Shown here in pieces: positions 5,260 through 21,510 of a stretch of DNA of 21,762 bases. The notes beneath the pieces were generated by a model, which saw only the letters and a program-made list of their open reading frames with translations, was not told where the DNA came from and searched no databases. Positions within the stretch are counted from its first letter, which is position 1; every line of letters begins with the position of its first letter. The stretch is taken from the UHGV virus genome UHGV-0262451; one strand, given 5' to 3'. The stretch is from a virus. A program made the translations under genes and the position numbers.

Positions 5260-5273
5260 GGTGTTTACTCCGT

Positions 5274-6052: not shown

Positions 6053-6055
6053 GCG

Positions 6056-6768: not shown

Positions 6769-6866
6769 GACCACCTCTGAAAAGTCGGGCGGTGGACGCC
6801 GGTACAGTGTCAGGTGATTCACCCTCACTGACCGGCGTGCCGCCCTGGCGCGGGGCGCATTCGTTG

Positions 6867-7610
6867 TTAACTGGCTTTCTTTTTCGGGCGTCCACGTTTT
6901 GCCGGTGTCACGCTCCGGGTCTTACGCGGGGCACGGGTGGCCGCTTTGGGCTGCGGCTCCGGCTTCGGTTTCAGCTCCCGCTCCAGTCGTTCAATCTCTT
7001 TTTTGACGCCTGCCTGACAGTCGAGCTGTGTCGCACGTTGCAGATGCGCCAGCGCACCTGCGGCATCACCAGCGTCACGCAGAAACAGACCGGTGATTTT
7101 GTGCAGCTTTGCGCGCACTTCATCAGGCATGTCAGCCGTGGCGGTCAGTTCAAGGGTCTCCGTCAGCAGGCGGGTATCCACAGACTCACCGGCAGCGTGA
7201 GCGCGCATGGCCGCAAGCGCCACCTCCTCGGTGAACATGTACGGCGGGGTGCGGCGGTGTTTCCCCGGCATGGCCAGACCGTACTTCAGGGCATAACGGG
7301 CAATCTCCAGCGCACCGGCAATATCGCCGGTATCCAGACGCCACAGCATGACCGTCATCAGAATGTCATCCTGTGCACCTTTGCCCTGCTCCAGCACGCC
7401 GTTCACCCACGGCAACCAGAACGGCAGCAGTTCGCGTTTTTTTGCGGCCTTCAGCTCTTTTGAATAAATCGCTTTCAGTGTGCGCTGGTCTGCGGCCAGC
7501 TTGACCAGCATCTGCTCATAGACAGTTGCATGTCGCAGCGGGGCGGCTTCCCGCTGCGCGGTCATCGCTGCCGAGACCCGCATCATGTGGCGCTGTGCGG
7601 GACTCGTCAT
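6867..7610 (-). CDS. M: Terminase small/endonuclease subunit gpM-like
   Basis: 247-aa ORF (P2 gpM size), basic C-terminal tail, between N and L. Confidence 0.88.
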   Translation of the reverse strand: MTSPAQRHMMRVSAAMTAQREAAPLRHATVYEQMLVKLAADQRTLKAIYSKELKAAKKRELLPFWLPWVNGVLEQGKGAQDDILMTVMLWRLDTGDIAGALEIARYALKYGLAMPGKHRRTPPYMFTEEVALAAMRAHAAGESVDTRLLTETLELTATADMPDEVRAKLHKITGLFLRDAGDAAGALAHLQRATQLDCQAGVKKEIERLERELKPKPEPQPKAATRAPRKTRSVTPAKRGRPKKKAS

Positions 7611-7613
7611 CGG

Positions 7614-8687
7614 TTACGCTCCCGGCTCTGCGGTCGCTTTAGCCAGTGTGGAGAAATCACCGACCTTAATTTTTTCCACCAGACAACCGGCGGCGTAGTC
7701 TTCCACCACGTAATCAATGTTCATTGACTCGTAGTTCTCCACGCGGTCGAGTTTCGGGTTTTCCTCAATCACGCGGCGATGGCTGTCATCCATGTAGTAG
7801 ATGGACAGGTTTTCCAGCTTTGTGATGAGCATCGCATCCGCCGGGAAGTACGGGACGCGTACCGCCGGCAGGTTGCCGATGCGTTTCTGGCTGATGATGA
7901 CGTCAGCGGCCAGCATTTCGCTGTTGTCCTGCTCCTTGTTGACGATGGGAAAATACTTGTCCGCCAGTAGCTGACGCCCCACAATCACCACAAGGTCAGG
8001 GTCTTCCTGATACCACGGTTCAATCAGGTTGTTGGTCGCATCCATCACCAGTGCATCAAGGCTGGCATAATCACCGCCCTTACCCACGCGGATGACCTCA
8101 GAGGTGGTGTGCCCTTCCTCGTCAGTGACCTTGCTCATCACGCGCGCCGGGGCTTCATTGCGGTATTTCTGCAGCCAGCCGACCGCCACATCCTGCAGCA
8201 TCTGGTTACTGCTGCGGTCAGAGGTTTCGGCACGCCTCACGCCGTTAAAACCGGCCATGATTAAATCAAGGGACTGGCGTTTGATAATGGCGTTACGGAC
8301 ACGGAGCTGGAAATCCTGATAACGCGCCCACAGGTCCAGCGTTTTGTAGCGGATATAAAAATCAAAGTTAATCTGGTCGCATTCGTACTTGTTTGACGCC
8401 AGCTTCGAGAAGTCCTTCGGCTGACGCTCGGTGCCACCGGCGGTGTCTGTGGTGCTGGCGATGGAGCCGGTGACACCAATACCAATTTTTTCCCCTTTCA
8501 TTTCGCTGACCGGCACAATGTTGATGCGGGTCAGAAAGTCAGAGGACTCCTGCATGGTGTTCATCAGGGTCTGGGTGACCGACGGTTCAACGGTGAATTT
8601 TTTCGACACATCACCGGCGTCGATGCCGTTCAGTTCGGCAACACGGGACAGGTAGGCATTAAATTTAAAGCGGGTTTCCTGGCGCAT
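7614..8687 (-). CDS. N: Major capsid protein gpN-like
   Basis: 357-aa ORF (P2 gpN size) between O and M. Confidence 0.9.
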   Translation of the reverse strand: MRQETRFKFNAYLSRVAELNGIDAGDVSKKFTVEPSVTQTLMNTMQESSDFLTRINIVPVSEMKGEKIGIGVTGSIASTTDTAGGTERQPKDFSKLASNKYECDQINFDFYIRYKTLDLWARYQDFQLRVRNAIIKRQSLDLIMAGFNGVRRAETSDRSSNQMLQDVAVGWLQKYRNEAPARVMSKVTDEEGHTTSEVIRVGKGGDYASLDALVMDATNNLIEPWYQEDPDLVVIVGRQLLADKYFPIVNKEQDNSEMLAADVIISQKRIGNLPAVRVPYFPADAMLITKLENLSIYYMDDSHRRVIEENPKLDRVENYESMNIDYVVEDYAAGCLVEKIKVGDFSTLAKATAEPGA

Positions 8688-8745
8688 AGTTTTTCCTGAA
8701 ATTAAGGGTTAATCGTGAAGGTTTTCCCGGACTGACTGACGCCGC

Positions 8746-9600
8746 TCAGCAGTTCGTCATCAGGGCGTCACCGCCACCACCGGTGGCCTTGCTGCGGCGC
8801 TGCTGGGTCAGACTTTCGGTGTGGTCGAGACTGTTTTTCAGGCGGGTGAATGCCTGGCTGGTTTCATCCGCCCTGTCAGTCACCTCCTGCTTAAGTGCGG
8901 AAAATGCGGTTTCCATCTCAGCAAGGCGCTGCTCAGTGGCGCTCAGTTTTTCCTGCACATGTTCAGCAACAGCGGTCACCGCTTCATGCACGTCATTCAG
9001 ACGGGCGTCATCGCTGGCCTGTTTGCGGCCAAAAATGGATTTCACCTTTTCGGTCAGGGCGGTGAACACGGTTTCAGGCAGGTCTTCAAATTCCAGCTCA
9101 ACGGGCGTTGCCACTGAAATCAGGTTTTCAGGGCTTAATTTGAAGCGGTTCAGGGGGTTGTGTTTTGCCGTGCGGCAGAATTCCAGGTATTCCGTGCCGA
9201 GGCTTGCCGGGTCATCGGTGACGGCCAGCCCCACCAGATAACATTTGCCGGTGTTGGCAAAATTTGGCTGAATTTCCATTGAGGTGTAGACCTTCTGCGC
9301 GGCCTTGTTCATCGCGATAAGGTCATCGGTCGGGGTGATTTTCGCAAACAGCGCCCATTTGCCTTTCAGCGCCGAATCATCGTCAATCTTTTCGGCCTTC
9401 AGTTCGGCCACATCGCCATAACGCTTAAAAATACCGTCAGGCAGGATGCCGCGCAGATGTTCCAGGTTAATACGGCAACCATAGACTCGCGGGTCAAAGG
9501 TTTCGGCCATTTCCTGAATATCCTGCGCACTGATGACACGCCCGTCACAGGTGTCACCCTCAACGCCGATACGAAAGAATTTTGAGACTTTTTTTGCCAT
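8746..9600 (-). CDS. O: Capsid scaffold/protease gpO-like
   Basis: 284 aa from the internal start MAKKVSKFFRIGVEGDTCDGR... (P2 gpO size); the track ORF 8746-9666 begins 22 codons further upstream. Confidence 0.85.
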   Translation of the reverse strand: MAKKVSKFFRIGVEGDTCDGRVISAQDIQEMAETFDPRVYGCRINLEHLRGILPDGIFKRYGDVAELKAEKIDDDSALKGKWALFAKITPTDDLIAMNKAAQKVYTSMEIQPNFANTGKCYLVGLAVTDDPASLGTEYLEFCRTAKHNPLNRFKLSPENLISVATPVELEFEDLPETVFTALTEKVKSIFGRKQASDDARLNDVHEAVTAVAEHVQEKLSATEQRLAEMETAFSALKQEVTDRADETSQAFTRLKNSLDHTESLTQQRRSKATGGGGDALMTNC

Positions 9601-9773
9601 TGTCAGGAGTCCTGAATAGTGATTAGAGGAGTCACATGTCGGCATCAGTTTCCCGACGATGCGCATCCTCCGCCATCAGTCCCGGATGGCTTATCACTGA
9701 CACAACAGCACCTTAGCGAATCGCGGGGCGCGACTCAGTAGCCTTGCCGTGTATTCATCACGGCGAGGTATTC
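9601..9773. promoter_or_regulatory. Divergent late-promoter region between gene O (minus) and gene P (plus)
   Basis: 173-bp non-coding gap between two divergently transcribed late operons, as in P2 where Ogr-activated promoters sit here. A partial dyad (TGTCGG-N10-CCGAC, about 9637-9656) is visible, but I could not find a clean TGT-N12-ACA match. Confidence 0.5.
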
Positions 9774-11546
9774 ATGACCATCACCACAGACACCACTCTT
9801 TTACACGACCCGCGTCGTCAGGCGGCGCTGCTGTACTGGCAGGGGTTTTCCGTGCCGCAGATTGCCGCCATGTTGCAGATGAAACGCCCGACGGTGCAGA
9901 GCTGGAAACAGCGCGACGGCTGGGACAGCGTTGCCCCCATCAGCCGTGTCGAAATGAGTCTGGAAGCGCGGCTGACCCAGCTCATCATCAAACCGCAGAA
10001 AACCGGCGGTGACTTCAAGGAAATTGACCTGCTCGGACGCCAGATTGAACGACTGGCACGGGTAAACCGTTACAGTCAGACCGGCAACGAGGCAGACCTT
10101 AATCCGAACGTCGCTAACCGCAACAAAGGCGGGCGGCGCAAACCGAAAAAGAATTTTTTCAGTGACGAGGCCATCGAAAAGCTGGAGCAGATTTTCTTTG
10201 AGCAGTCTTTCGACTATCAGTTGCACTGGTATCGCGCCGGGCTTGAGCACCGCATCCGCGATATCCTGAAATCCCGCCAGATTGGCGCAACGTTTTATTT
10301 TTCCCGCGAGGCGCTGCTGCGCGCCCTGAAAACCGGCCATAACCAGATTTTTCTGTCGGCCAGTAAAACGCAGGCGTATGTGTTCCGCGAATACATCATC
10401 GCCTTTGCCCGTCTGGTTGACGTTGACCTGACCGGTGACCCGATTGTCCTGGGCAATAACGGCGCAAAACTGATTTTTCTCGGCACCAACTCCAATACCG
10501 CGCAGAGCCATAACGGCGACCTGTACGTCGACGAGATTTTCTGGATCCCGAATTTTCAGGTACTGCGTAAGGTGGCATCAGGTATGGCCTCACAGAGCCA
10601 CCTGCGCTCGACCTATTTCTCCACCCCGTCCACGCTGGCGCACGACGCCTACCCATTCTGGTCGGGTGAACTGTTCAACCGGGGACGCGCCAGCGCCGCC
10701 GAACGCGTGGAAATCGACGTCAGTCATAACGCCCTTGCCGGAGGGCTTCTCTGTGCGGACGGCCAGTGGCGGCAGATTGTCACCATTGAGGACGCCCTGA
10801 AAGGCGGCTGCACGCTGTTCGACATTGAGCAGCTCAAACGCGAAAACAGCGCCGACGATTTTAAAAACCTGTTCATGTGTGAATTTGTTGACGACAAGGC
10901 GTCGGTGTTCCCGTTCGAGGAGCTGCAACGCTGCATGGTCGACACGCTGGAAGAATGGGAAGACTATGCACCGTTTGCCGCCAATCCGTTCGGCTCCCGC
11001 CCGGTATGGATTGGTTACGACCCGTCACACCGTGGCGACAGCGCCGGATGCGTGGTGCTGGCACCGCCGGTGGTGGCCGGTGGCAAATTCAGAATACTTG
11101 AGCGTCACCAGTGGAAAGGCATGGACTTTGCCACCCAGGCTGAATCCATCCGCAAACTCACCGAAAAATACAACGTCGAATACATCGGAATTGATGCCAC
11201 CGGCCTCGGTGTCGGCGTGTTCCAGCTCGTGCGCTCGTTCTATCCCGCCGCGCGCGACATCCGCTACACACCGGAAATGAAAACCGCAATGGTGCTCAAG
11301 GCAAAAGACGTTATCCGCCGTGGCTGTCTGGAATATGACGTCAGCGCCACCGACATCACCAGCTCGTTTATGGCTATTCGCAAGACCATGACCAGCAGCG
11401 GACGCAGCGCCACCTATGAGGCCAGCCGCAGCGAGGAAGCCAGCCACGCCGATCTCGCCTGGGCGACCATGCACGCCCTGTTAAATGAGCCACTCACCGC
11501 CGGTATCAGCACCCCGCTGACATCCACCATTCTGGAGTTTTACTGA
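9774..11546 (+). CDS. P: Terminase large (ATPase) subunit gpP-like
   Basis: 590 aa from MTITTDTTLLHDPRRQAALLYWQGFSVPQIAAMLQ... (P2 gpP size and recalled N-terminus); GAGG SD upstream of the ATG at 9774. The track ORF starts 10 codons earlier at 9744. Confidence 0.9.
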   Translation: MTITTDTTLLHDPRRQAALLYWQGFSVPQIAAMLQMKRPTVQSWKQRDGWDSVAPISRVEMSLEARLTQLIIKPQKTGGDFKEIDLLGRQIERLARVNRYSQTGNEADLNPNVANRNKGGRRKPKKNFFSDEAIEKLEQIFFEQSFDYQLHWYRAGLEHRIRDILKSRQIGATFYFSREALLRALKTGHNQIFLSASKTQAYVFREYIIAFARLVDVDLTGDPIVLGNNGAKLIFLGTNSNTAQSHNGDLYVDEIFWIPNFQVLRKVASGMASQSHLRSTYFSTPSTLAHDAYPFWSGELFNRGRASAAERVEIDVSHNALAGGLLCADGQWRQIVTIEDALKGGCTLFDIEQLKRENSADDFKNLFMCEFVDDKASVFPFEELQRCMVDTLEEWEDYAPFAANPFGSRPVWIGYDPSHRGDSAGCVVLAPPVVAGGKFRILERHQWKGMDFATQAESIRKLTEKYNVEYIGIDATGLGVGVFQLVRSFYPAARDIRYTPEMKTAMVLKAKDVIRRGCLEYDVSATDITSSFMAIRKTMTSSGRSATYEASRSEEASHADLAWATMHALLNEPLTAGISTPLTSTILEFY

Positions 11547-12580
11547 TGAGTAAGAAAAAAGGGAAAACACCGCAACCTGCGGCAAAAAAAATGACCGCCA
11601 GCGCCCCGAAAATGGAGGCATTCACCTTTGGTGAGCCGGTGCCGGTACTCGACCGCCGTGACATTCTGGATTACGTCGAGTGCATCAGTAACGGCAGATG
11701 GTATGAGCCGCCGGTCAGCTTTACCGGTCTGGCGAAAAGCCTGCGTGCTGCCGTGCATCACAGCTCGCCGATTTACGTCAAACGCAATATTCTGGCCTCG
11801 ACATTTATCCCGCACCCGTGGCTTTCCCAGCAGGATTTCAGCCGCTTTGTGCTGGATTTTCTGGTGTTCGGTAATGCGTTTCTGGAAAAGCGTTACAGTA
11901 CCACCGGTAAGGTCATCAGACTGGAAACCTCACCGGCAAAATATACCCGCCGTGGCGTGGAGGAGGATGTTTACTGGTGGGTGCCGTCCTTCAACGAGCC
12001 GACAGCCTTCGCGCCCGGCTCCGTGTTTCACCTGCTGGAGCCGGATATCAATCAGGAACTGTACGGCCTGCCGGAATATCTCAGCGCCCTTAACTCTGCC
12101 TGGCTGAATGAGTCGGCCACGCTGTTCCGCCGCAAGTATTACGAAAACGGCGCTCATGCCGGATACATCATGTATGTCACCGATGCCGTGCAGGATCGCA
12201 ACGATATCGAAATGCTTCGCGAAAACATGGTTAAGTCGAAAGGCCGCAACAACTTTAAAAACCTGTTTCTCTATGCCCCACAGGGGAAAGCCGACGGCAT
12301 TAAAATTATCCCCCTCAGTGAAGTGGCGACGAAGGACGATTTTTTTAATATCAAAAAAGTCAGCGCCGCAGATCTCCTGGACGCACACCGCATCCCCTTT
12401 CAGTTGATGGGCGGTAAGCCGGAGAATGTCGGGTCACTGGGAGATATTGAGAAAGTGGCAAAGGTCTTTGTCCGCAATGAGCTTATCCCGTTACAGGACA
12501 GGATCCGCGAGATAAACGGCTGGCTCGGTCAGGAGGTCATCCGCTTTAAAAACTACTCACTGGACACTGACAACGGCTGA
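11546..12580 (+). CDS. Q: Portal protein gpQ-like
   Basis: 344-aa ORF (P2 gpQ size); start overlaps the P stop (TGATG); last gene before cos, as in P2. Confidence 0.9.
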   Translation: MSKKKGKTPQPAAKKMTASAPKMEAFTFGEPVPVLDRRDILDYVECISNGRWYEPPVSFTGLAKSLRAAVHHSSPIYVKRNILASTFIPHPWLSQQDFSRFVLDFLVFGNAFLEKRYSTTGKVIRLETSPAKYTRRGVEEDVYWWVPSFNEPTAFAPGSVFHLLEPDINQELYGLPEYLSALNSAWLNESATLFRRKYYENGAHAGYIMYVTDAVQDRNDIEMLRENMVKSKGRNNFKNLFLYAPQGKADGIKIIPLSEVATKDDFFNIKKVSAADLLDAHRIPFQLMGGKPENVGSLGDIEKVAKVFVRNELIPLQDRIREINGWLGQEVIRFKNYSLDTDNG

Positions 12581-12585
12581 ACATC

Positions 12586-12607
12586 GCCGCCTGCGGGCGG
12601 CTTTTTT
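12586..12607 (+). terminator. Rho-independent terminator of the P-Q operon
   Basis: GCCGCC-tgcg-GGCGGC hairpin (12586-12601) followed directly by TTTTTT (12602-12607), 6 nt after the Q stop codon. Confidence 0.75.
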
Positions 12608-12749
12608 ACACCCCGTCATCACGCCCTCACACACTCACCACCGCACAAAACAGCCCGCAGACACACCAACGCCCCGGTGCACAATCTAAACGCCATCAAG
12701 ACGCGCTCAGACGCTGAAAAAATAAAATCAGCACCACCGCCAGCGCGCA

Positions 12750-12768
12750 GTGCTTTCCCCGCCTCGCC
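12750..12768. other. cos site (cohesive-end sequence) of the P2-like genome
   Basis: GTGCTTTCCCCGCCTCGCC, the reverse complement of the 19-nt P2 cohesive end as I recall it (GGCGAGGCGGGGAAAGCAC), located just past Q where P2 cos lies. Confidence 0.7.
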
Positions 12769-13040
12769 TGCCCGCTTTATAGGTCGGGTTTAATGCAGTT
12801 GCGTGACCATTTTGGATCCGCGCCAGCTCTGGCCGCTCACGGCCAGAGCGTGCAAGGCTGACTCATGCAAAACCATGCACCTTATGCATTCATGGTTAAA
12901 TAACGATAACTCTGACTCAAATTATTGGTTTGTGTTGGTTTTATTTTGGTTAAGAGATGCGCATTGCACCAATAATACTGGATAGCAGCTTAATAATCAG
13001 CGCTGTTAACAACAGGATATTTGAAGTCATTACCATGGTA

Positions 13041-13070
13041 TTGACCAAGTTACTAAATCTCGGTGTTAAT
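13041..13070 (+). promoter_or_regulatory. Candidate sigma70-type promoter upstream of the cargo ORF
   Basis: TTGACC (13041-13046), 18 bp spacer, GTTAAT (13065-13070) in an AT-rich leader about 150 bp upstream of the ORF. Weak -10; position is speculative. Confidence 0.25.
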
Positions 13071-13221
13071 CAGGGATTGTCAGCGTCATATGTAACATCT
13101 CACGATATCCACATCAACAGCCTGTAGTTTGGCGGCTGATGGCACTTTGGGAGGCTTTCACTTTCACTCTATCTAATGTTACTATCGCGCCCATTACTAG
13201 GAAAATTACTTAATCATAACA

Positions 13222-14844
13222 ATGGGTAGTGATATGCAAATTCAAAGAGGCGTAATTTGGCATACATACACAACACAATCGCCAGAATATCAAGATGCCG
13301 AGAAATTTAGTTCAGACTTGATAAATACAGGGTTGTTTCTTGCAATACTAACGCCACACAACACATTCAAATATTTATCAAAAAACACACCATCCTCAAC
13401 AAAAATAAGCATGAGATATGAAAACAACGAAAATGCTGTTACTGTTGAGGGCGGTGATAAGATTCATGCGTCAGGTGTTTGCGCCCTAACTGCTACGGCT
13501 TTTTCCCAGTGTATAAACATTAGACTCTCTGAAAGAAAGCTTTTTCACACACCAGGTAATAATTATTACGAAAACATAATATGTTGTCAAAAGCCAATCC
13601 TAGTAAAAAATAACGATGTGGAATTTTTTATTCATCCAATTATTCGTCTCTATAAAAATGGGATAGCACATGTTACCTTTGTTGACACTGAGGAACGCAA
13701 TGTTGATTTGAATGATTTCATAAAAAACATTTTAAACCTACCTTTAAAACTAAACAGTTCGATTACTACCAGCATAGAGTTCGCCAAGAGTTCGTTACTG
13801 CTAGACTATTCAGGAATGCCACTACTTAGTAGACTGATAGCGAAGTGTAGTATTAAAAAGAGTTTAAAACTATTGAACGACAACTCTGAAGATCTAGAGG
13901 TTGGTGAATTTAAGGTTACAGGTAGATATATTGATTACACAAATTTAATGCAAATTCAGCATAATTTAAGTGACATCGCCAGATATGTGATTGCTATAAT
14001 ATTTGACAAAACAAAAAAAAGAACAATTAAAGATTATCTTTTAGGCAGAAATCTTTCTGAGTTTTATAACTTCTGGCAAGGTAAGCCAAGCGTCTATATC
14101 TTCGAGCACGATAATCAAAAAAACAATGCCACTGACAATTTTCAGAGTAATAAGTCGTTAGTTTATTCATTGCTGGGCAAAAATCACCTATTAACAAACA
14201 TAAAGCACACCAAGAAAATCATTGATCATCGTGCCTTTGATGATTTCAATTTTTTTTCTGAACAGTCTTTAGCACTGACTATACTTACATGTAAAGTTAA
14301 AAAAGAATTTTTTACCGGGACATATACAGAAGAAAATCTGATGTGGGACAATCAGGTTAAGAGTGATCTTAGAGATTTCATTTCCTTTTCATATGATTCA
14401 ACAATAGAAAAAATTGAAAATGAAAAAAGCCATCTTGGCCTTGCCAAAATACAAGAAGACATCCTTTTATTTGAAGAGTGGCTTAGGATTTTCTCAAGGA
14501 AGTATGGAGAGATACAAGACTTCACATTTAATACATTAAATTCAATCGATATAAAAAGGGCTCGTCAAAGCGTCATTGAATTGATAAAGTCAAGAATCCA
14601 AGTGCTAAAATTAATTGATGCCGACTTAAATGACAAAAGTAATAAGAAGATAACAATGGCCTTTGGTTTAATTGCATCGACATCATTATCCCCAATTTTA
14701 GTAAAGCCATTATTTGAAACACTAAACCTGTCACTTTTAATTAAGAAATCTGGACTCAAAAGCTATGAAGATGCAATTTACTTTGCCACATCCATGGTTT
14801 TGGTTTGGTTAATAATAAAGCTATTAAACTTCAGGAGAAAATAG
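13222..14844 (+). CDS. Hypothetical protein, 540 aa, AT-rich cargo gene in the cos-to-A variable locus; no recognisable catalytic motif; predicted C-terminal membrane hairpin
   Basis: Single long ORF in otherwise ORF-poor AT-rich DNA; codon usage dominated by AAA/AAT/ATT/TTA. Two hydrophobic stretches at the C-terminus (ITMAFGLIASTSLSPILV and AIYFATSMVLVWLIIKLL, then FRRK). Start may be the second ATG at 13234 (weak GGGTAG-like SD). Function is inferred from location only. Confidence 0.7.
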   Translation: MGSDMQIQRGVIWHTYTTQSPEYQDAEKFSSDLINTGLFLAILTPHNTFKYLSKNTPSSTKISMRYENNENAVTVEGGDKIHASGVCALTATAFSQCINIRLSERKLFHTPGNNYYENIICCQKPILVKNNDVEFFIHPIIRLYKNGIAHVTFVDTEERNVDLNDFIKNILNLPLKLNSSITTSIEFAKSSLLLDYSGMPLLSRLIAKCSIKKSLKLLNDNSEDLEVGEFKVTGRYIDYTNLMQIQHNLSDIARYVIAIIFDKTKKRTIKDYLLGRNLSEFYNFWQGKPSVYIFEHDNQKNNATDNFQSNKSLVYSLLGKNHLLTNIKHTKKIIDHRAFDDFNFFSEQSLALTILTCKVKKEFFTGTYTEENLMWDNQVKSDLRDFISFSYDSTIEKIENEKSHLGLAKIQEDILLFEEWLRIFSRKYGEIQDFTFNTLNSIDIKRARQSVIELIKSRIQVLKLIDADLNDKSNKKITMAFGLIASTSLSPILVKPLFETLNLSLLIKKSGLKSYEDAIYFATSMVLVWLIIKLLNFRRK

Positions 14845-14997
14845 ACAATGTAATACCTAAATGCCAATACTAATGTAATTACAAAAATCTTGGCTTAAAG
14901 TATTAGGATCGTAACTTCAACCATAGCTAACGCCTCGCTGGGCGAGTTGTTCAACCCCGCCAGCACTGAAAGCAAGTTTCAGCACCGGCGGCGTTTC

Positions 14998-15234
14998 CTA
15001 TGGTCGACGTGGCGGCAGTATTATCGGACCTCTCGCCGGTGTGAAGGCCTCAACTTTCTGATTGCTTATATCATGCAGCCGCCCGTAATTATCCCTGACG
15101 ATTTCAGCACACCCGACCAGTTCGGCGGGTGTCAGATTCTCATTGACCATTATTTGTTGCAGTCGATGCACAATACCCATCAGTTTTATGCTGTTGTTCT
15201 TATGCTGCGGAATTTCACGGTGTAGTCTGTGCAT
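14998..15234 (-). CDS. Hypothetical small protein (78 aa), translationally coupled to the upstream 101-aa ORF
   Basis: ATG at 15234-15232 directly follows the TAA of the 101-aa ORF; strong SD (GAAGGTGGAGA) 8 nt upstream. The opposite-strand 92-aa ORF (14947-15225) lacks such signals. Confidence 0.55.
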   Translation of the reverse strand: MHRLHREIPQHKNNSIKLMGIVHRLQQIMVNENLTPAELVGCAEIVRDNYGRLHDISNQKVEAFTPARGPIILPPRRP

Positions 15235-15540
15235 TTACCAGTCTCCACCTTCAACGTGTAACTTGTCTGAAATGAGCGCCGCTAACTCATGATTTGCTGA
15301 TGAATTTCTTCCGCTATGCGTATCCCCCAGAACCAACGCGAAGCCATCGCCACCCACCGTGTAATACTTAGCTTCCGGGAAGTGTTCCCGCACCTCCTGA
15401 CGCAGCTTTTCTAGCGCGGTAGAAAGACGATAAAATCGAGATGCCGCAGTCGGCATAACATCAGATAGCAAGTCACGCGCCGTGGTAATGCCTTCGCTAT
15501 CTTTAATAACTTGTTTTATTTCTTCGGTGTACATGGTCAT
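15235..15540 (-). CDS. Hypothetical protein (101 aa) immediately downstream of A; positional equivalent of P2 orf91
   Basis: ATG directly follows the TGA of gene A (TGAATG) with GGAG about 9 nt upstream. Sequence not recognised. Confidence 0.7.
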   Translation of the reverse strand: MTMYTEEIKQVIKDSEGITTARDLLSDVMPTAASRFYRLSTALEKLRQEVREHFPEAKYYTVGGDGFALVLGDTHSGRNSSANHELAALISDKLHVEGGDW

Positions 15541-17874
15541 TCAATCAATCTCCATTATTGAAACATTGGAATATCCCGGCCACTCATCAGCGACCGCATA
15601 ACTGAATTTTTTCTCGCCATATGTCACCGTTGCGCCCCGCGCCAGTACATCCAGTTCCCACCGCTCCGGCGTGATACCGTGTTGTGCTAGGTCAAACCGG
15701 ATGCGTGATATCTGGTCACGCTGCGATTTAGTCAGTCGCGCTGAAGGTGCTAATTCATCCGGCTTCAACGGTGATCGGTTTCTTTGTTGCCTGTTTTGAG
15801 GTTTAGCCCCTGCTTTTAGCGCGCCCCTGAGCACCTTCACGGCGTCCGGGTCATTCCAGTCGATCACCCCAGCATCAATGAGATTTATCACCGCTGCGGC
15901 TTGCTCAGACGGTGTGGGCGTCATATCCGTGTCGCTTCCGTTGGCCGGTAACCCACAGTTATTGACAGGACTCCGAGGCGCGGCGATGCCGCTTTTTAAA
16001 GTCAAAGGCTCAACGACCGGCACTTTCGTAACAATGCGCCAGTCCGTCGTTCTGGTGATATGAATATGACGCGCGCCGAGATGCGGCGCGTAAATGCCGA
16101 CCACTCTCTCGACTTCTTCCTCGTACTCGTTAACTTCATCCGACGGACTACGGGCGACCCTGACAGTCTGACAATCGCGCGGGACATTTGCCCCACCCTG
16201 CGCGCTGATATACAACGCAAAATCACCACTGTCTGCGGCGGCGCGTGCAGCCTCGACGCGCTCGTCAAACTCATCAGCAATGCTGACGCCGCGCGGCAAT
16301 TTGCGTAGTTCACGGTAAGCCCCCATTGTCGGCAGGCCAACCGTTTTAAATTGCGGGATGCGCCACGTTGACGCCCATGCGGTAACAGCCGCTGCAGTGT
16401 CTTTCAGCGGCCTGCCGGTGTCGTTATCGAGCTGACCATCCAGTGCATAGCCGTCGATGTTTTTTGAAATGTATTTCGCGATATATCCCGCAGCACCGCC
16501 CCGGTTAAGGTGTTTTGCCTGAAAACGGTTTCGCGCGGCTCCTCTTTCGTCGCCATCCTCTTTGAGCGCATAGCGACGCATGATTTCGATAATCTGGTTA
16601 CGCTGGCGTGAATTACAAAAAAGCATCATATGCCAGTGCGGCGTTCCGTCGTGGTGTGGCTCGACGACACGCAAACCGTAGACCTGTAAATCATTATCCT
16701 TGAATGCCGTGCGCATCAGGCTCCAGATACGGCAGAGATAACGCTGCGCATCCTTTGGATTAAATGCCTCATCGTTCCAGCCGTGATTAAGCTGCACGGT
16801 TTTACTTTCGCCTTTTCCTACCTGACGTGTCGGGTGATACTTTGACGGCGCGGTCAGCGTGATAAACATCCCCACATCACCCTCTGCAGCGGCGTAACGC
16901 TCAATACCGGCAATGGTGTTCATCAGCTCCATCCGGCGAATTTCAGGATTAGAAATACTGCCCATCACCTTACTGATAAGGTCGATGCGCTCGCCGGTTT
17001 CCCTGTTTTCAAGGTCACACGATTTAAGAAATTCCAGATTTGCCTGGCGGCGCGCACGCACATCACGAATGGCGTGTTTACTGGCATAAGGAGAACGGTC
17101 TTTATTGACCTCCCCGACAGCTATCAGTAACGCTTCATGCCAGCGCATACGCTGGCCTTTAAGCTGACTAATCCACCACTCATCGTTAAACAGGCGGGCA
17201 ATGGCAGAATATGCCTGCCTCGTTGTCATCTGTCCTTTACGGTATTTTTTCCAGTAGAGCGGGGAAATATTGAAAGCACGTGCAGCGCCAGCAACATGAC
17301 CATACAGATGCGCCTGCGCCTCATCCGTAAACAGCGATTCTTTTTCACCATGCGCATCAACCCATGCATCGCAGAGTTCCTCATACATCATGAAAAGCTG
17401 CGATGAGATACGGGCGGCAAACTTTTTCAGCTCCTTGTCATTCATTCCAGGCAGGCGCGCATAGTGGTCACGCTCTGCCAGAAACAGCAACGACGCGTCG
17501 GTGTTCATTTCATGGCGCTGATTAACGCGCTCAATGCGCGGCCATAAACGACGCTGAAAAGTGGATGTGAGGAAATAAAACCCGTGCACCGGGCTTTTAT
17601 TGCGCCGGATGTAGTCATAGCGTGAAGTAAACAGCGAGCGCAAAAAGTAAGGCAGGCGATTAATCGTGGATAAAACACCTTGCACCTGACGCATCTCGTC
17701 ACGTGTAAGGGGTCTTTCGCGCCCGACAGCCTCGCGTGGCGCGTTCCATGCATAAGCACCGGTAAACGTCTTACCGGTGCCTGCGGCAAATGCTGACGGA
17801 GGGACAAAACGCCCGAAGGCTTTAACGGCCATATGAGCCAAAAGCCTCTGAACAACGCTTGCTGAGTTGCTCAA
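15541..17874 (-). CDS. A: Replication initiation protein gpA-like (HUH-type rolling-circle nickase)
   Basis: 777-aa ORF; internal MAVKAFGRFVPPSAFAAGTGKTFTG... matches my recollection of the P2 A N-terminus, so the true start may be 17832 (763 aa). Contains a HUH-like motif (TPHWHMMLF). Confidence 0.9.
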   Translation of the reverse strand: MSNSASVVQRLLAHMAVKAFGRFVPPSAFAAGTGKTFTGAYAWNAPREAVGRERPLTRDEMRQVQGVLSTINRLPYFLRSLFTSRYDYIRRNKSPVHGFYFLTSTFQRRLWPRIERVNQRHEMNTDASLLFLAERDHYARLPGMNDKELKKFAARISSQLFMMYEELCDAWVDAHGEKESLFTDEAQAHLYGHVAGAARAFNISPLYWKKYRKGQMTTRQAYSAIARLFNDEWWISQLKGQRMRWHEALLIAVGEVNKDRSPYASKHAIRDVRARRQANLEFLKSCDLENRETGERIDLISKVMGSISNPEIRRMELMNTIAGIERYAAAEGDVGMFITLTAPSKYHPTRQVGKGESKTVQLNHGWNDEAFNPKDAQRYLCRIWSLMRTAFKDNDLQVYGLRVVEPHHDGTPHWHMMLFCNSRQRNQIIEIMRRYALKEDGDERGAARNRFQAKHLNRGGAAGYIAKYISKNIDGYALDGQLDNDTGRPLKDTAAAVTAWASTWRIPQFKTVGLPTMGAYRELRKLPRGVSIADEFDERVEAARAAADSGDFALYISAQGGANVPRDCQTVRVARSPSDEVNEYEEEVERVVGIYAPHLGARHIHITRTTDWRIVTKVPVVEPLTLKSGIAAPRSPVNNCGLPANGSDTDMTPTPSEQAAAVINLIDAGVIDWNDPDAVKVLRGALKAGAKPQNRQQRNRSPLKPDELAPSARLTKSQRDQISRIRFDLAQHGITPERWELDVLARGATVTYGEKKFSYAVADEWPGYSNVSIMEID

Positions 17875-18097
17875 CCTGCGCGTTTAAATCAGCAAAAGAC
17901 TTTGCGCTTCCGGTCAGAATATCGTGATGCATCAGGCCGGAAACGAGCTGGCTTAATTTCGGGTAATAACCAACCACCGCCAGCCATTCCTGACCGGCGT
18001 TTTTACCGCTTTCCGCTCTCTTTTTCTCGTGGAGAATAAACTGAAAGCTGTCACTGGTAACGACATAACGTTCGCCAATTTCAATACGAATACTCAT
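17822..18097 (-). CDS. Hypothetical early protein (91 aa), P2 orf83-position
   Basis: ORF in the early operon between the zinc-finger ORF and A, overlapping both neighbours. Confidence 0.65.
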   Translation of the reverse strand: MSIRIEIGERYVVTSDSFQFILHEKKRAESGKNAGQEWLAVVGYYPKLSQLVSGLMHHDILTGSAKSFADLNAQVEQLSKRCSEAFGSYGR

Positions 18098-18318
18098 GCC
18101 GTTCTCCGGTAATGTTTGTTTTTTGCTTCAAAGACTGACTGGCAGGAAACACAACGCGTGGCTGACGGATAAGCCGCACGACGGGCAGCAGGTATTGGCG
18201 CGTCACACTCTTCGCAAACCAGCGCAGAAACACCGCAATGCTTTACCCTTGCCGCGTTAATCTGGCGCTCCAGTAATTCAGCCTGTTGTTCCTGAATAAA
18301 ATCTACGTTGTCCGGCAT
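18094..18318 (-). CDS. TraR/DksA-family C4 zinc-finger protein (74 aa), P2 orf82-position
   Basis: Two CxxC pairs at the C-terminus (CEECDAPIP...CVSCQ) with spacing typical of TraR/DksA zinc fingers. Confidence 0.8.
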   Translation of the reverse strand: MPDNVDFIQEQQAELLERQINAARVKHCGVSALVCEECDAPIPAARRAAYPSATRCVSCQSVFEAKNKHYRRTA

Positions 18319-18623
18319 TACCAGCTCCTTTTGTCGTTAAGTTTTTTAAATTCATCAGCGCAATAGCTGGCAATTTCTGTCGTTAATTTTGTCAGTTCAT
18401 CCACTGAGGAAATTTGCTTGTGAAATACAGCGCGTTTCACAAGTAAATTGATCACATCAGACAGGAGGTTTAATTCGCTCTGATAAATCGCGATAACAGA
18501 TTCAGTTATGTCGCGCTTTTCTTTATCAAGACCAAGTTGAATAAGAGACAAATCGCCATTTTCCATAACGGCGATTTTTAAGGCGTTATTCAGTAATACA
18601 ATTGAACGAGAACAGGACATCAA
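18318..18623 (-). CDS. Hypothetical early protein (101 aa), P2 orf81-position
   Basis: ORF with coupled start/stop in the early operon; lower GC than neighbours. Confidence 0.65.
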
Positions 18624-18877
18624 AGCACCTCCCCGCGAGACAATCCGATATTGTGAAATTTTTCCGACTCCTGACTGAGCAGCTCGACTATCTCCACGCG
18701 GGATAACTCCGCCTTTGTGATGTGGCGAATCATGGCGTCAAGATGAGAAGAAAAGCGCGTCGCTGCGTCGGCCTGTGCTTCGGTTCTGGCCTGTTGCAGC
18801 AGTAATGCGTATTTACCGCACTGATTTTCAGAAACTGTATGCATGACTTTCTCCAGGCAAAAAGAAGCCCCGCACAA
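18620..18877 (-). CDS. Hypothetical early protein (85 aa or shorter), P2 orf80-position
   Basis: ORF between B and the next small ORF; start uncertain (an internal Met at codon 12 is possible). Confidence 0.6.
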
Positions 18878-18907
18878 TTAAGTGCGTTAAAAACTCTTGT
18901 TAATTAC

Positions 18908-19408
18908 TTAATGCAGATATTGCTCTGGTTTTACCGACGTCAGAATTGTCGGTGCATACTCAAACAGGCTGAATAATTCACGTAATGCACGGAATAAAGC
19001 ATCACGCCAGTAACATGACTCTTCATTAATTCGCCAGTATGGCTGGTTAAATTCTTTTTCTGTCAGTCGTGCGTGCATAAATAAAGTGCGACGCTGACTG
19101 ACAGTTAAAAAACTAATATATGCATACTCACTTGCACCAACCTGACGGCGTTTTGAGAATGCCCCACGCAATTCATCAATTGCACATACCAGTCGTTCAC
19201 GTTCGACGTCGTTCATTTCTTCAAAACGCATCGTTGCGTGACGCTGTTTTAACTGCGCATGAAAGCAAACCGTTAGCCGTTCGCGTTCCATCATCTGATT
19301 ATAATAATCGCATGTCTCCTGCCAGCGAGGGACGGCCAGATGCTTACCAATTATCCGGCGCATGGCTGCTGGCTGTTTTTCGACGAGATTAAGCGTCATC
19401 ACTGTCAT
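18908..19408 (-). CDS. B: Replication protein gpB-like (helicase-loader function in P2)
   Basis: 166-aa ORF (P2 gpB size) in the cox-B-A early operon. Confidence 0.85.
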   Translation of the reverse strand: MTVMTLNLVEKQPAAMRRIIGKHLAVPRWQETCDYYNQMMERERLTVCFHAQLKQRHATMRFEEMNDVERERLVCAIDELRGAFSKRRQVGASEYAYISFLTVSQRRTLFMHARLTEKEFNQPYWRINEESCYWRDALFRALRELFSLFEYAPTILTSVKPEQYLH

Positions 19409-19599
19409 TTCCAGCCCCTCCGGCTTTTCAGAAAGGTCAGAGCCTTTTTTAACGGACTCTGTTTTTTGGTGCGGATAATGATTCCCTTACGCCCCTTACC
19501 GTGGGTGATGGTGAAGTCAATCGCCCTGGGGCTTTCGTTACGCAGTAACTGAGCAATACAACGAGGCTCATTCATACGGTTCTCCTTAACGTGGTTCAC
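19405..19599 (-). CDS. Hypothetical small early protein, P2 orf78-position
   Basis: 64-aa ORF between cox and B, overlapping both; start uncertain. Confidence 0.5.
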   Translation of the reverse strand: MNHVKENRMNEPRCIAQLLRNESPRAIDFTITHGKGRKGIIIRTKKQSPLKKALTFLKSRRGWK

Positions 19600-19861
19600 C
19601 GAGACCTAACCACATCAACCAGCCGTCACGAATCTCTTTAGGGCGGCTTTCATAAGCCAGTTTTAGTCCGTTATTCCATGCCGGAAGGTATACCCAATAT
19701 TCACCTGCACGACCTGAAGCTGATTGTGGATCGGTCATATCAATTACAGGCAGCTTTCCTTTATCAATCATCCGACGAACCGCTCCTGTCGATTTTCCTA
19801 TTAGTTTTGCGAACTCCTGATAAGGAATCGCATCAGTCATGAGTGTTACTTGCTTGCTCAT
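19586..19861 (-). CDS. cox: Cox excisionase / transcriptional regulator
   Basis: 91-aa ORF MSKQVTLMTDAIPYQEFAKLIGKSTGAVRRMIDKGKLP..., the size and sequence I recall for P2 Cox; divergent from C. Confidence 0.9.
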   Translation of the reverse strand: MSKQVTLMTDAIPYQEFAKLIGKSTGAVRRMIDKGKLPVIDMTDPQSASGRAGEYWVYLPAWNNGLKLAYESRPKEIRDGWLMWLGLGEPR

Positions 19862-20390: not shown

Positions 20391-21404
20391 ATGGCAATCA
20401 AAAAACTCGATGATGGTCGATATGAAGTGGACATCCGCCCTACTGGACGTAATGGAAAACGCATCCGTAGGAAGTTTGATAAGAAAAGCGAAGCTGTCGC
20501 TTTCGAGAAATACACGTTGTACAACCACCACAATAAAGAATGGCTATCAAAACCAACAGACAAGCGACGTCTGTCGGAGCTGACACAGATCTGGTGGGAT
20601 TTAAAGGGTAAACACGAAGAGCATGGGAAATCTAATCTTGGAAAAATTGAAATCTTCACAAAAATAACGAATGACCCATGCGCATTTCAAATTACGAAAT
20701 CGCTTATCAGCCAGTACTGCGCCACCCGAAGAAGTCAGGGTATTAAACCTTCGAGTATCAATCGTGATTTAACATGTATTAGCGGCATGTTTACAGCCCT
20801 GATTGAAGCGGAGTTATTCTTTGGTGAGCACCCTATCAGAGGGACAAAAAGGCTTAAGGAGGAAAAACCAGACACAGGCTATCTCACGCAGGAAGAAATT
20901 GCCTTACTGCTTGCTGCTCTTGACGGCGACAACAAAAAGATTGCGATTCTTTGCCTGAGTACTGGAGCGCGTTGGGGAGAAGCAGCTCGTTTGAAAGCAG
21001 AAAATATCATCCATAACCGCGTCACGTTTGTTAAAACGAAAACAAACAAACCACGCACCGTCCCGATCTCAGAGGCTGTTGCCAAAATGATCGCGGATAA
21101 CAAACGAGGTTTTTTATTCCCTGATGCTGATTACCCTCGCTTCAGACGAACAATGAAAGCAATAAAACCGGATTTGCCAATGGGGCAAGCCACACATGCA
21201 CTAAGGCACAGCTTTGCCACTCATTTCATGATTAATGGAGGAAGTATTATCACGCTACAACGGATACTAGGTCACACGCGGATTGAGCAAACTATGGTTT
21301 ACGCTCATTTTGCGCCAGAGTACCTTCAGGACGCCATTTCTCTTAATCCGCTAAGAGGTGGTACTGAGGCCGAGAGTGTCCACATAGTGTCCACAGTAGA
21401 GTAA
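20391..21404 (+). CDS. int: Tyrosine integrase
   Basis: 337-aa ORF (P2 Int size); C-terminal catalytic region with HALRHSFATH...LGHTRIEQTMVYAHF (conserved R/H/Y pattern of tyrosine recombinases); adjacent to the att core. Confidence 0.9.
   Translation: MAIKKLDDGRYEVDIRPTGRNGKRIRRKFDKKSEAVAFEKYTLYNHHNKEWLSKPTDKRRLSELTQIWWDLKGKHEEHGKSNLGKIEIFTKITNDPCAFQITKSLISQYCATRRSQGIKPSSINRDLTCISGMFTALIEAELFFGEHPIRGTKRLKEEKPDTGYLTQEEIALLLAALDGDNKKIAILCLSTGARWGEAARLKAENIIHNRVTFVKTKTNKPRTVPISEAVAKMIADNKRGFLFPDADYPRFRRTMKAIKPDLPMGQATHALRHSFATHFMINGGSIITLQRILGHTRIEQTMVYAHFAPEYLQDAISLNPLRGGTEAESVHIVSTVE
21376..21395. promoter_or_regulatory. Candidate Int arm-type binding sites (direct repeat GTGTCCACA x2)
   Basis: GTGTCCACA at 21376-21384 and 21387-21395 (11-bp phasing) at the 3' end of int; reverse complement TGTGGACA matches the P2 Int arm-site consensus as I recall it. 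Confidence 0.5.
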
Positions 21405-21483
21405 CGTTTAAGGGCTTTCAGTGGTAATTTATGCCGCTCAAACCCGCATTGTACCGTTGAAAGCCCCTACTGGTGACACCCTA

Positions 21484-21510
21484 AATCTCCCTTACACGGG
21501 CTTATTTTTT
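21484..21510. other. Attachment-site core (prophage/flank junction)
   Basis: AATCTCCCTTACACGGGCTTATTTTTT, the reverse complement of the 27-bp P2 att core as I recall it (AAAAAATAAGCCCGTGTAAGGGAGATT), 80 bp downstream of the int stop. Confidence 0.7.

What the first reader, a model, noticed from the sequence alone, without database searches (positions are those of the whole stretch)
13222..14844. Uncharacterised 540-aa AT-rich ORF at the P2 cos-to-A cargo position (where P2 carries tin/old): candidate new single-gene anti-phage system
The locus between cos (12750-12768) and the replication operon is where P2 carries old and tin, and it is described in the literature as a hotspot where P2-like prophages swap in diverse defence systems. 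Here it holds one long ORF, convergent with gene A. The protein shows no Walker A, HEPN (Rx4-6H), HUH, TIR or obvious nuclease motif that I can see, and has a distinctive C-terminal hydrophobic hairpin. Its composition is clearly foreign to the phage backbone. Together this fits a phage-borne abortive-infection or superinfection-exclusion gene that may not belong to a described family.
Basis: partly seen in the sequence, partly recalled or inferred. Interest (0 to 1): 0.85.

Follow-up and report, generated by a model that had tools for sequence, protein, structure and literature searches.

The report
Uncharacterised membrane protein in P2 defence hotspot
A P2-like prophage carries, exactly where phage P2 keeps its anti-phage genes old and tin, one foreign gene for a 536-aa protein of an undescribed family found across many bacterial phyla; it looks like a new single-gene anti-phage system but nobody has tested it.

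Summary
Window 13222-14844 (+) is a real, conserved gene; the true start is probably 13234, giving 536 aa. Its G+C is 33% against about 53% in the backbone. It lies 465 nt past the P2 cos site (12750-12768), runs from cos towards gpA, and so has the position and orientation of P2's old-tin operon.

Enterobacterial homologues (33-74% identical) sit at the same portal/cos-gpA position, sometimes as the only gene there. About 228 distant cluster representatives occur across many phyla as stand-alone genes, often beside toxin-antitoxin, defence or mobile-element genes.

Rousset et al. 2022 catalogued a 50%-identical variant as "system #84" but did not test it.

Best reading, inferred and not shown: a single-protein sensor plus membrane-pore effector for abortive infection.

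The parts
11546..12580 (+). Portal gene gpQ of the P2-like prophage; left border of the hotspot (context only)
   Evidence: ORF; annotated 'phage portal protein' in the 99.7%-identical E. coli 1217KP record.
12586..12601 (+). Terminator-like GC hairpin plus T-run just after gpQ. It would insulate the cargo from late P-Q transcription.
   Evidence: 6 G-C pairs, then TTTTTT. A consensus match only; function not shown.
12750..12768 (.). P2 cos cohesive-end sequence
   Evidence: Identical to the annotated cosR of NC_001895.
12769..12895 (+). Conserved cos-proximal segment shared by loci with different cargo. It includes phased ATGCA repeats at 12864-12897. In P2 the old-tin mRNA starts just beyond the equivalent motif. 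Homology between loci ends here, which sets the left cargo boundary.
   Evidence: Alignment A6 of the window, P2, E. coli variant 2 and Klebsiella; P2 transcript starts.
12896..14950 (+). AT-rich foreign cargo segment of about 2.05 kb: a leader of about 330 nt, the ORF, and a 3' tail of about 100 nt
   Evidence: G+C falls to 0.31-0.39 here. The boundaries are approximate.
13234..14844 (+). The cargo gene: 536 aa from the likely start at 13234, or 540 aa from 13222. It belongs to an undescribed family whose only library match is PHROG 24946.
13234..14313 (+). Predicted cytoplasmic N-terminal region (aa 1-360) with two alpha/beta lobes. It is the candidate sensor and holds the most variable patches (aa 50-80, 180-215, 310-320). 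It also holds conserved motifs WQGKP (14074-14088), Q295 (14116-14118) and DHRAFDD (14224-14244).
14329..14640 (+). Helical bundle and long stalk (aa 366-469), including the near-invariant G-E-I motif (14506-14514)
   Evidence: Secondary structure of the model; conservation.
14641..14703 (+). Membrane helix 1 (aa 470-490, NKKITMAFGLIASTSLSPILV). It continues directly from the stalk helix, is the most conserved segment of the protein, and carries the F-G motif.
14704..14763 (+). Variable loop between the two membrane helices (aa 491-510), with near-invariant P492; predicted periplasmic
   Evidence: Topology is inferred from the positive-inside rule.
14764..14838 (+). Membrane helix 2 (aa 511-535) followed by the basic tail FRRK
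14998..15540 (-). Two small backbone ORFs (78 and 101 aa) co-directional with gpA, at the place of P2 Orf91. They are not part of the cargo gene's unit, because they are absent from the Klebsiella and variant-2 loci.
   Evidence: No Pfam hit. G+C 0.49.
15541..17874 (-). Replication endonuclease gpA; right border of the hotspot (context only)

Best explanation
The gene is a horizontally acquired, single-gene anti-phage module carried by a P2-like prophage at the cos-proximal defence hotspot, and it is expressed from the lysogen. The protein is anchored in the inner membrane by a C-terminal helical hairpin, with both termini in the cytoplasm. Its large cytoplasmic N-terminal part (two alpha/beta lobes) acts as the sensor of an infection cue. 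The signal passes through a helical stalk that runs directly into membrane helix 1. Activation makes the membrane helices, probably in a homo-oligomer, form or open a pore or channel. The membrane depolarises and the infected cell stops supporting phage growth (abortive infection).

Shown: the gene is real, foreign, conserved and alone at the hotspot; the family is undescribed; the architecture is predicted with high confidence; membrane helix 1 is the most constrained part.

Inferred: the defence function, sensing by the N-terminal lobes, oligomerisation, pore formation and the abortive outcome.
For: **Position and orientation**
- They are identical to the old-tin operon of P2.
- The gpQ-gpA interval is a documented reservoir of anti-phage systems (PMC9122126; PMC13586616).

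**Recurrence at the same site**
- Homologues of 33-74% identity occupy the same site in P2/186-like prophages or their remnants in Enterobacter, Klebsiella, Pantoea, Serratia, Cronobacter and E. coli.
- In several of these loci it is the sole gene there.

**Foreign origin and rarity**
- G+C is 33%.
- It is present in 13 of 5,426 complete E. coli genomes.

**Distant relatives**
- About 228 distant cluster representatives occur in many phyla, almost all full-length.
- They are stand-alone genes: no Pfam family is shared by the neighbours of more than 3 of 23 loci.
- All six Pfam-annotated neighbourhoods contain toxin-antitoxin, defence or mobile-element genes: PIN, DUF4238, an AAA_15/DUF3696 ATPase, HicA, ParE/Phd, LmuB_C-MC3-CTD7, an ICE, and transposases.
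- PADLOC hits among the pooled neighbours include PDC-S09, mad3, HEC-03B, NsnB and AriA/GajA-like proteins.

**Architecture**
- The AF2 model has pLDDT 93.8 and pTM 0.89.
- Two C-terminal hydrophobic helices are conserved in 87 of 90 members.
- Basic residues flank both cytoplasmic ends.
- Membrane helix 1 is the best-conserved region (0.85 within the P2-borne clade, 0.49 family-wide), while N-lobe patches are the most variable. This suits a functional pore helix joined to a diversifying sensor.
- CorA-family channels recur among the top but non-significant structural hits in all three fold searches.

**Precedent**
- Membrane-pore effectors are an established defence strategy, for example Csx28, Csx23, CARF-TM proteins and CRISPR-associated CorA (paper list).
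Against: - There is no phenotype of any kind. Rousset et al. catalogued the variant but did not clone it.
- The hotspot also carries non-defence cargo.
- Many neighbours of the distant homologues are housekeeping genes, and no defence-association statistic with a background control was computed.
- No recognisable sensor, nucleotide-binding or enzymatic domain was found.
- Profile comparison with CorA is null.
- Membrane helix 1 is only marginally hydrophobic.
- No deposited phage genome carries the gene, and no clear sigma-70 promoter was found upstream.
Confidence: 0.45

Rival explanations
1. It is a superinfection-exclusion protein. Sitting permanently in the inner membrane of the lysogen, it blocks genome entry, or an early membrane step, of incoming phages, possibly including other P2-like phages. 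The cell is not killed.
For: - It is a membrane-anchored prophage cargo at a hotspot where SieB-type exclusion genes also occur (Pfam 'SieB' arrangements in Table S5A).
- A tested hotspot system excluded P2 relatives.
- The membrane hairpin is conserved.
Against: - From my general knowledge, known exclusion proteins are mostly small membrane proteins, whereas here about 470 of 536 residues form a conserved cytoplasmic multi-domain body.
- The periplasmic loop, where an entering phage would be met, is short and is the least conserved part.
- Relatives are spread across phyla in non-prophage contexts.
Confidence: 0.15
2. It is non-defence cargo: a membrane channel, transporter or signalling protein (CorA-like in architecture) that changes host physiology and benefits the lysogen independently of phages.
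For: - CorA/MRS2/ZntB channels are the recurrent top structural neighbours.
- The overall layout of an alpha/beta domain, a stalk and two C-terminal membrane helices resembles CorA.
- The hotspot carries some non-defence genes.
- Several distant homologues have housekeeping neighbours.
Against: - No sequence relation to CorA was found: hhalign probability 0.3%, no GMN motif, no PF01544 hit.
- The structural scores are not significant.
- Distribution is sporadic and rare, tied to mobile elements and islands, and composition is AT-rich. That is atypical for a housekeeping transporter.
Confidence: 0.2
3. It serves the phage rather than the host: for example counter-defence, interference with P4-like satellites, prophage maintenance, or control of lysis timing.
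For: - It lies next to cos in P2-like elements, which are parasitised by P4.
- A few P2 elements carry anti-defence genes (28 P2 elements).
- Its being a membrane protein could suggest a role in lysis.
Against: - Anti-defence genes are rare in P2.
- The distant homologues lie in chromosomal islands, an ICE and a plasmid, with no P2/P4 context.
- The Serratia copies persist where the prophage has decayed to a portal fragment. That argues for a host-beneficial function independent of the phage life cycle.
Confidence: 0.1

Closest known systems
P2 old-tin lysogenic-conversion operon (NC_001895)
   Same: Same genomic slot and orientation: it starts just past cos, is transcribed towards gpA and is convergent with it. 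Both are AT-rich accessory cargo, and both share a conserved cos-proximal upstream segment.
   Different: There is no sequence or domain relationship. Old is an AAA/OLD-family ATPase-nuclease (product and note). From my own knowledge, not tested here, Tin is a soluble protein. This protein has no ATPase or Toprim match and is membrane-anchored.
Rousset et al. 2022 P2-hotspot 'system #84' (WP_001165947), and PHROG 24946
   Same: Same protein family (50% identity, full length), same single-gene arrangement, same hotspot. The query matches PHROG 24946 over its full length.
   Different: These are catalogue entries with no name, domain or function. The window's allele is a rarer and more divergent branch: 1 of 5,426 complete E. 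coli genomes against 12.
CorA / MRS2 / ZntB divalent-cation channels, including CRISPR-associated CorA effectors
   Same: The gross architecture is alike: a cytoplasmic alpha/beta domain, long helices with a stalk running into membrane helix 1, a second C-terminal membrane helix, and a basic C-terminal tail. They recur at the top of all three structure searches.
Single-protein or effector-type membrane defence proteins (Csx28, Csx23, CARF-TM proteins such as Cam1, CBASS 2TM effectors, RexB)
   Same: The proposed logic is the same: a cytoplasmic sensing part coupled to transmembrane helices that permeabilise the membrane on infection (literature list; Rousset 2022 discussion).
   Different: There is no sequence match to any PADLOC model. 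No partner that makes a signal, such as a cyclase or a Cas protein, is conserved nearby. The membrane helices are C-terminal, and the fold has no solved counterpart.
GAF/PHY-type small-molecule-binding domains

Membership tests
P2-like cos-proximal (gpQ-gpA) hotspot cargo | Lies between the portal gene/cos and the replication gene A of a P2-like element | tested here: met
   gpQ 11546-12580, cos 12750-12768, ORF 13234-14844, gpA 15541-17874. The hotspot is defined in PMC9122126.
P2-like cos-proximal (gpQ-gpA) hotspot cargo | Variable content between conserved flanks; composition foreign to the backbone | tested here: met
   Flank homology ends about 120 nt after cos, while the cargo differs between P2, the window and other loci. 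G+C is 0.33 against 0.53.
Any described anti-phage defence family (PADLOC-DB v2.0.0) | Significant match to a defence-protein HMM | tested here: not met
   0 families for the query at E <= 1. Among 90 relatives there is only one chance-level hit. DefenseFinder's current models could not be run.
Any described anti-phage defence family | Experimentally shown phage resistance | not testable with these tools
   The signature peptides are absent from the tables of cloned systems in Rousset 2022. No paper holds the accession or the PHROG id.
OLD-family nucleases and Tin (the P2 occupants of this slot) | ATPase (AAA_15/AAA_21) plus Toprim domains, or similarity to Tin | tested here: not met
CorA / MIT superfamily channels | Pfam CorA (PF01544) or profile-level sequence similarity | tested here: not met
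   No Pfam hit in the query or in 89 relatives. hhalign against E. coli CorA gives a probability of 0.3%.
CorA / MIT superfamily channels | GMN (or G-x-N) motif at the outer end of membrane helix 1 | tested here: not met
   Membrane helix 1 carries a conserved F-G-[LIV] near its cytoplasmic end, and P492 follows it. There is no GMN. CorA's YGMNF is visible.
CorA / MIT superfamily channels | Cytoplasmic alpha/beta domain, stalk helix and two C-terminal membrane helices, with significant fold similarity | tested here: inconclusive
SAVED / CARF cyclic-oligonucleotide sensors | SAVED (PF18145) or CARF domain match, with a signal-producing cyclase nearby | tested here: not met
GAF domain | Pfam GAF match, or strong fold match with a ligand pocket | tested here: inconclusive
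PHROG 24946 | Full-length match to the PHROG profile | tested here: met
   E = 0, 1135 bits, residues 1-540 of 540, category 'unknown function'.

The most novel reading that the evidence does not exclude
This would be the founding member of a phylum-spanning, structurally new family of stand-alone immune proteins. A single polypeptide senses a phage cue directly with a novel two-lobed cytoplasmic domain. It then gates its own CorA-like oligomeric membrane channel, with no second-messenger-producing partner. P2-like phages would have captured it as swappable hotspot cargo.
Probability: 0.22. Interest if true: 0.75.

Novelty: new variant of a known kind. Interest (0 to 1): 0.55.

Why it matters
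If it protects against phages, it would add a defence family with no Pfam, PADLOC, NCBIfam or PDB counterpart and a fold without a solved relative. The family has about 228 clusters at 50% identity across Proteobacteria, Cyanobacteria, Acidobacteriota, Chloroflexota, Desulfobacterota and other phyla.

It would also give a compact one-gene model for how a cytoplasmic sensor is coupled to a membrane effector. Sequence-only annotation cannot currently assign it. It is also a concrete, cheap test case: a 1.6-kb gene, an E. coli host, and a hotspot that already yielded PARIS and other systems. It was listed in the 2022 survey but left untested.

If it proves to be a channel with no phage phenotype, it would be a useful counter-example to inferring defence from position at the P2 hotspot.

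Tried and rejected
1. **SAVED/CARF sensor.** The lead was a UniRef name for the Alteromonas homologue. I rejected it: there are no HMM hits at permissive thresholds, no SAVED structure among the fold hits, and no conserved cyclase neighbour.
2. **CorA homology.** Structural hits recur but are not significant. hhalign against E. coli CorA is null and there is no GMN motif. I keep it only as an architectural analogy.
3. **First AF2 model.** The model from 23 close sequences was mediocre (pLDDT 73). The 90-sequence model replaced it.
4. **AFDB50 Foldseek.** The library was not available, so no AFDB comparison was made.
5. **Searches with the 90-sequence alignment A3.**
   - The search for related loci on viral contigs failed because no stretch was conserved enough.
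   - The search for homologous proteins returned only close relatives, because of the word pre-filter.
6. **Domain fusions.** Ten unusually long members have no Pfam domains.
7. **Partner gene or antitoxin.**
   - The two short ORFs in the window's leader (12803-12985 and 12957-13127) have no Pfam hit.
   - That leader is missing from the variant-2 and Klebsiella loci.
   - No neighbour is conserved across the distant loci.
8. **Promoter, terminator and RNA.**
   - By eye, TTGACC-N18-GTTAAT at about 13041-13070 is a weak candidate only.
   - The 3' hairpin at 14923-14950 has no U-run, and the region's fold z-score is -1.2.
   - Rfam finds nothing in 12500-15700.
9. **Deposited phages.** No DNA or protein match in 50,697 records.
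10. **Literature.** No paper holds WP_001165947 or phrog_24946 in its main text.
Full report
**1. The observation**

- The ORF listing gives one ORF at 13222..14844 (+), 540 aa.
- It is not a chance frame. The AT-rich segment holds a 547-codon open frame, against a maximum of 181 in 1,000 shuffles. P(no stop in 540 codons) is about 4e-19. The five alternative frames carry 24-60 stops each.
- G+C is 0.31-0.35 across the ORF against 0.52-0.60 in the backbone. GC3 is 0.31, against 0.66 for the portal gene and 0.56 for gpA.
- Window 12750-12768 is the exact reverse complement of GGCGAGGCGGGGAAAGCAC. It aligns base for base with the annotated cosR of phage P2.
- A 99.7%-identical copy in E. coli 1217KP sits in an annotated P2-like prophage, between 'phage portal protein' and 'replication endonuclease'. 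It is called 'hypothetical protein' there.
- RefSeq starts the gene at the second ATG (window 13234, 536 aa). Most homologues start at the equivalent MQI..., and the four extra residues are not conserved. I take 13234 as the likely start.
- Two small minus-strand ORFs (14998-15234 and 15235-15540) lie between the gene and gpA, at the place of P2 Orf91. They have no Pfam hit and are absent from other loci that carry the gene.

**2. The locus**

- In reference P2, the old-tin mRNA starts about 150 nt from cosR and runs towards A, convergent with A and Orf91. The window's gene has the same position and orientation.
- I aligned the cos-proximal DNA of the window, P2, an E. coli variant locus and a Klebsiella locus.
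  - All share cos plus about 120 nt, including phased ATGCA repeats (window 12864-12897). In P2 these lie just upstream of the old-tin transcript starts.
  - Beyond that point the sequences diverge into their cargoes. This puts the left cargo boundary near 12896, where G+C starts to fall.
- A terminator-like hairpin with a T-run directly follows gpQ (12586-12601), so the cargo is probably not read through from the late operon.
- I found no convincing promoter or terminator for the gene itself and no Rfam match in 12500-15700.

**3. The protein family**

- Pfam, NCBIfam and PADLOC give nothing for the protein. The only match is PHROG 24946, full length, 'unknown function'.
- The word-indexed search of 5.8 billion proteins found 24 clusters, all enterobacterial, all about 535-540 aa and 'hypothetical', at 33-99% identity.
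- An exhaustive profile search of 1.84 billion cluster representatives found 228 proteins at E <= 0.001 and 140 at E <= 1e-10. Nearly all are full length, about 510-590 aa.
- These come from Pantoea, Aeromonas, Alteromonas, Geobacter, Cellvibrio, Cyanobium and other cyanobacteria. They also come from Acidobacteriota, Chloroflexota, Desulfobacterota, Longimicrobium, Armatimonadota and Janthinobacterium.
- None of 90 aligned members hits any Pfam or PADLOC model beyond chance. The PDB sequence profile search is empty. Ten unusually long members carry no recognisable fused domain.
- Family-wide near-invariant positions, in 536-aa numbering, are:
  - P135, G143 and N168;
  - W281-x-G-[RK]-P285 and Q295;
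  - [DN]331-x-R333-x-F-[DE]-D337 and L348;
  - G425-E426-[IV];
  - F477-G478 and P492.

**4. Structure**

- With the 90-sequence alignment, AlphaFold2 gives a confident model: pLDDT 93.8, pTM 0.89.
- The model has these parts:
  - two alpha/beta lobes (about aa 1-165 and 176-360);
  - helices 366-396, 400-420 and 425-435;
  - a 47-residue helix (438-484) whose end is the first hydrophobic segment;
  - two short helices;
  - a final helix (509-535) that is the second hydrophobic segment.
- Two C-terminal hydrophobic segments are present in 87 of 90 members.
- Basic residues precede membrane helix 1 (NKK) and follow helix 2 (FRRK). By the positive-inside rule, both termini should be cytoplasmic; this is an inference.
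- Foldseek against PDB gives nothing at E <= 0.001. Its top hit is the E. coli CorA cytosolic domain (E 0.034), with MRS2 at E 0.24 and TM-scores <= 0.28.
- CorA also appeared with the weaker first model.
- hhalign of the family profile against E. coli CorA is null (probability 0.3%), and there is no GMN motif. The CorA likeness is therefore an architectural analogy at most.
- One UniRef label calls an Alteromonas member a SAVED-domain protein. HMM scans and the fold searches do not support it.

**5. Where the protein is constrained**

- Per-region conservation shows that membrane helix 1 is the best-conserved segment: 0.85 within the P2-borne clade and 0.49 family-wide.
- The inter-helix loop (aa 491-510) and N-lobe patches (aa 50-80, 180-215, 310-320) are the most variable.
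- A passive membrane anchor would not be expected to be the most conserved element. The pattern fits a functional, pore-lining or gating helix joined to a faster-evolving sensing surface. This is an inference.

**6. Genomic context of relatives**

Enterobacterial homologues all sit at the portal/cos-gpA site, in the same orientation:

| Organism | Identity | Context |
|---|---|---|
| Enterobacter | 68% | next to gpA in a decayed P2 prophage |
| Klebsiella | 51% | the only gene between portal and gpA |
| E. coli variant 2, WP_001165947 | 50% | the only annotated gene there |
| Pantoea | 37% | 186-like prophage |
| Cronobacter | 50% | P2 remnant |
| Serratia | 46% | beside a portal fragment after the rest of the prophage was lost |

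- In complete E. coli genomes the window's allele occurs in 1 of 5,426 and variant 2 in 12 of 5,426.
- None of 50,697 deposited phage genomes has it.

Distant homologues are stand-alone:

- Among 124 neighbouring ORFs from 23 loci, no Pfam family occurs in more than 3 loci.
- All six neighbourhoods with Pfam annotation contain toxin-antitoxin, defence or mobile-element genes:
  - PIN_12/PIN_8, DUF4238 and TA pairs in Cyanobium;
  - an AAA_15/DUF3696 ATPase and HicA in another genome;
  - an ICE with a Pol-beta nucleotidyltransferase in Cellvibrio;
  - transposases in Geobacter;
  - ParE/Phd, PIN and another antitoxin in a Terriglobia genome;
  - an LmuB_C-MC3-CTD7 cluster 3 kb away in another.
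- PADLOC hits among the pooled neighbours include PDC-S09, mad3, HEC-03B, NsnB and AriA/GajA-like ATPases.
- Many other neighbours are housekeeping genes, and I could not compute an enrichment against a background.

**7. What is already known**

- Rousset et al. 2022 (PMC9122126) defined the gpQ-gpA hotspot: 18,150 loci and 169 curated systems. Some are non-defensive, such as partition systems in about a quarter of P2-like phages and cdt in about 2%.
- Their Table S5A lists WP_001165947 alone as 'hypothetical'. Table S5B lists the same sequence as system #84: 43 occurrences, no Pfam, '1 TM'.
- The family's signature peptides are absent from their tables of cloned systems.
- The 2026 follow-up (PMC13586616) tested novel systems from P4 loci (abstract). 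The two sections I read confirm the P2 gpA-gpQ hotspot and report no test of this protein.
- No paper in the library holds the accession or the PHROG id.
- The family is therefore recorded as an anonymous hotspot occupant, but it is unnamed and untested.

**8. Interpretation**

- The best-supported reading is a single-gene anti-phage module. It would have a cytoplasmic two-lobed sensor, a helical stalk and a membrane hairpin that forms or opens a pore on activation, giving abortive infection (confidence 0.45).
- Only the architecture and the context are shown. Sensing, oligomerisation, pore formation and any phage phenotype are inferred.
- The rivals are:
  - constitutive superinfection exclusion (0.15);
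  - a non-defence channel or signalling cargo (0.20);
  - a function that benefits the phage, such as counter-defence or satellite interference (0.10).
- It is not a member of any family I could test: OLD/Tin, CorA, SAVED/CARF, GAF, or any PADLOC model.

**9. Verdict**

- The defence interpretation is plausible and now better grounded: a conserved hotspot position across genera, a stand-alone gene in island-like contexts across phyla, a novel confident fold, and a highly constrained membrane helix. It remains unproven.
- The family is not entirely unrecorded.
- I rate it as a good but not exceptional candidate: a new variant of a known kind (prophage-borne single-gene defence with a membrane effector), interest 0.55.

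Noticed in passing
window 12769-12897; compare L044 (P2) 5925-6075, L043 5830-5960, L013 7830-7960: About 120 nt next to cos are conserved among P2-like loci that carry unrelated cargo. They include phased ATGCA repeats (window CATGCAAAACCATGCACCTTATGCATTCATGG). In P2 these lie just upstream of the old-tin transcript starts. They could be a shared hotspot promoter or operator, or part of the packaging signal.
   Followed up: partly
window 12896-13221: The window's allele has an AT-rich leader about 270 nt longer between the conserved cos-proximal segment and the start codon. In E. coli variant 2 and Klebsiella the gene starts only about 190 nt from cos. The leader holds two short ORFs (60 and 56 aa) with no Pfam hit.
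   Followed up: partly
L042 (NZ_CP134387.1, 88-kb 'plasmid' pMTY11352_3) 1-19614: A record annotated as a plasmid carries a whole P2-like prophage with the variant-2 gene, followed by the chromosomal genes pflA and ycaD. The same strain's chromosome holds another copy. This is probably a mis-assembled or excised chromosomal segment.
   Followed up: no
L002-L005 (Enterobacter) 5189-6505: The decayed P2-like prophage that carries the 68%-identical homologue also has a 438-aa Ion_trans_2 (potassium-channel family) gene inserted between the tail gene S and baseplate gene V. This is a second membrane-channel-type cargo, at the tail-region hotspot.
   Followed up: no
L006-L008 (Serratia) about 6500-12200: In Serratia the homologue persists beside a 220-aa portal fragment, although the rest of the prophage is gone. 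Two unannotated ORFs (about 239 and 257 aa) and a PhoH-like ATPase follow it on the opposite strand. This may be a domesticated remnant or a small island.
   Followed up: no
L046 7083-7997 and L016 6853-7902: In two distant loci an upstream gene abuts the homologue in the same orientation: an unannotated 304-aa ORF with a 3-nt gap, and a Trypsin_2-like 349-aa protein with a 98-nt gap. These may be occasional partner genes. They are not conserved across the family.
   Followed up: no
P0143 (Alteromonas gilva, UniRef100_A0ABT5L5S9): UniRef names this family member a 'SMODS-associated and fused to various effectors (SAVED) domain-containing protein'. Pfam and NCBIfam scans up to E = 5 and the fold searches give no support, so the label looks like an unsupported automatic prediction.
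   Followed up: yes
cluster of P0001 (P0027, P0035, P0038 and others): Several E. coli genomes, including complete ones, carry truncated alleles of about 165-167 aa of the window's protein. They may be pseudogenes, which would be of interest if the protein is costly or toxic.
   Followed up: no
window 20444-21762: By offset from the annotated 1217KP record, the integrase ends near 21439 and the host gene pflA begins near 21471. The window therefore contains the right prophage-host junction (att) in that gap of about 30 nt.
   Followed up: no
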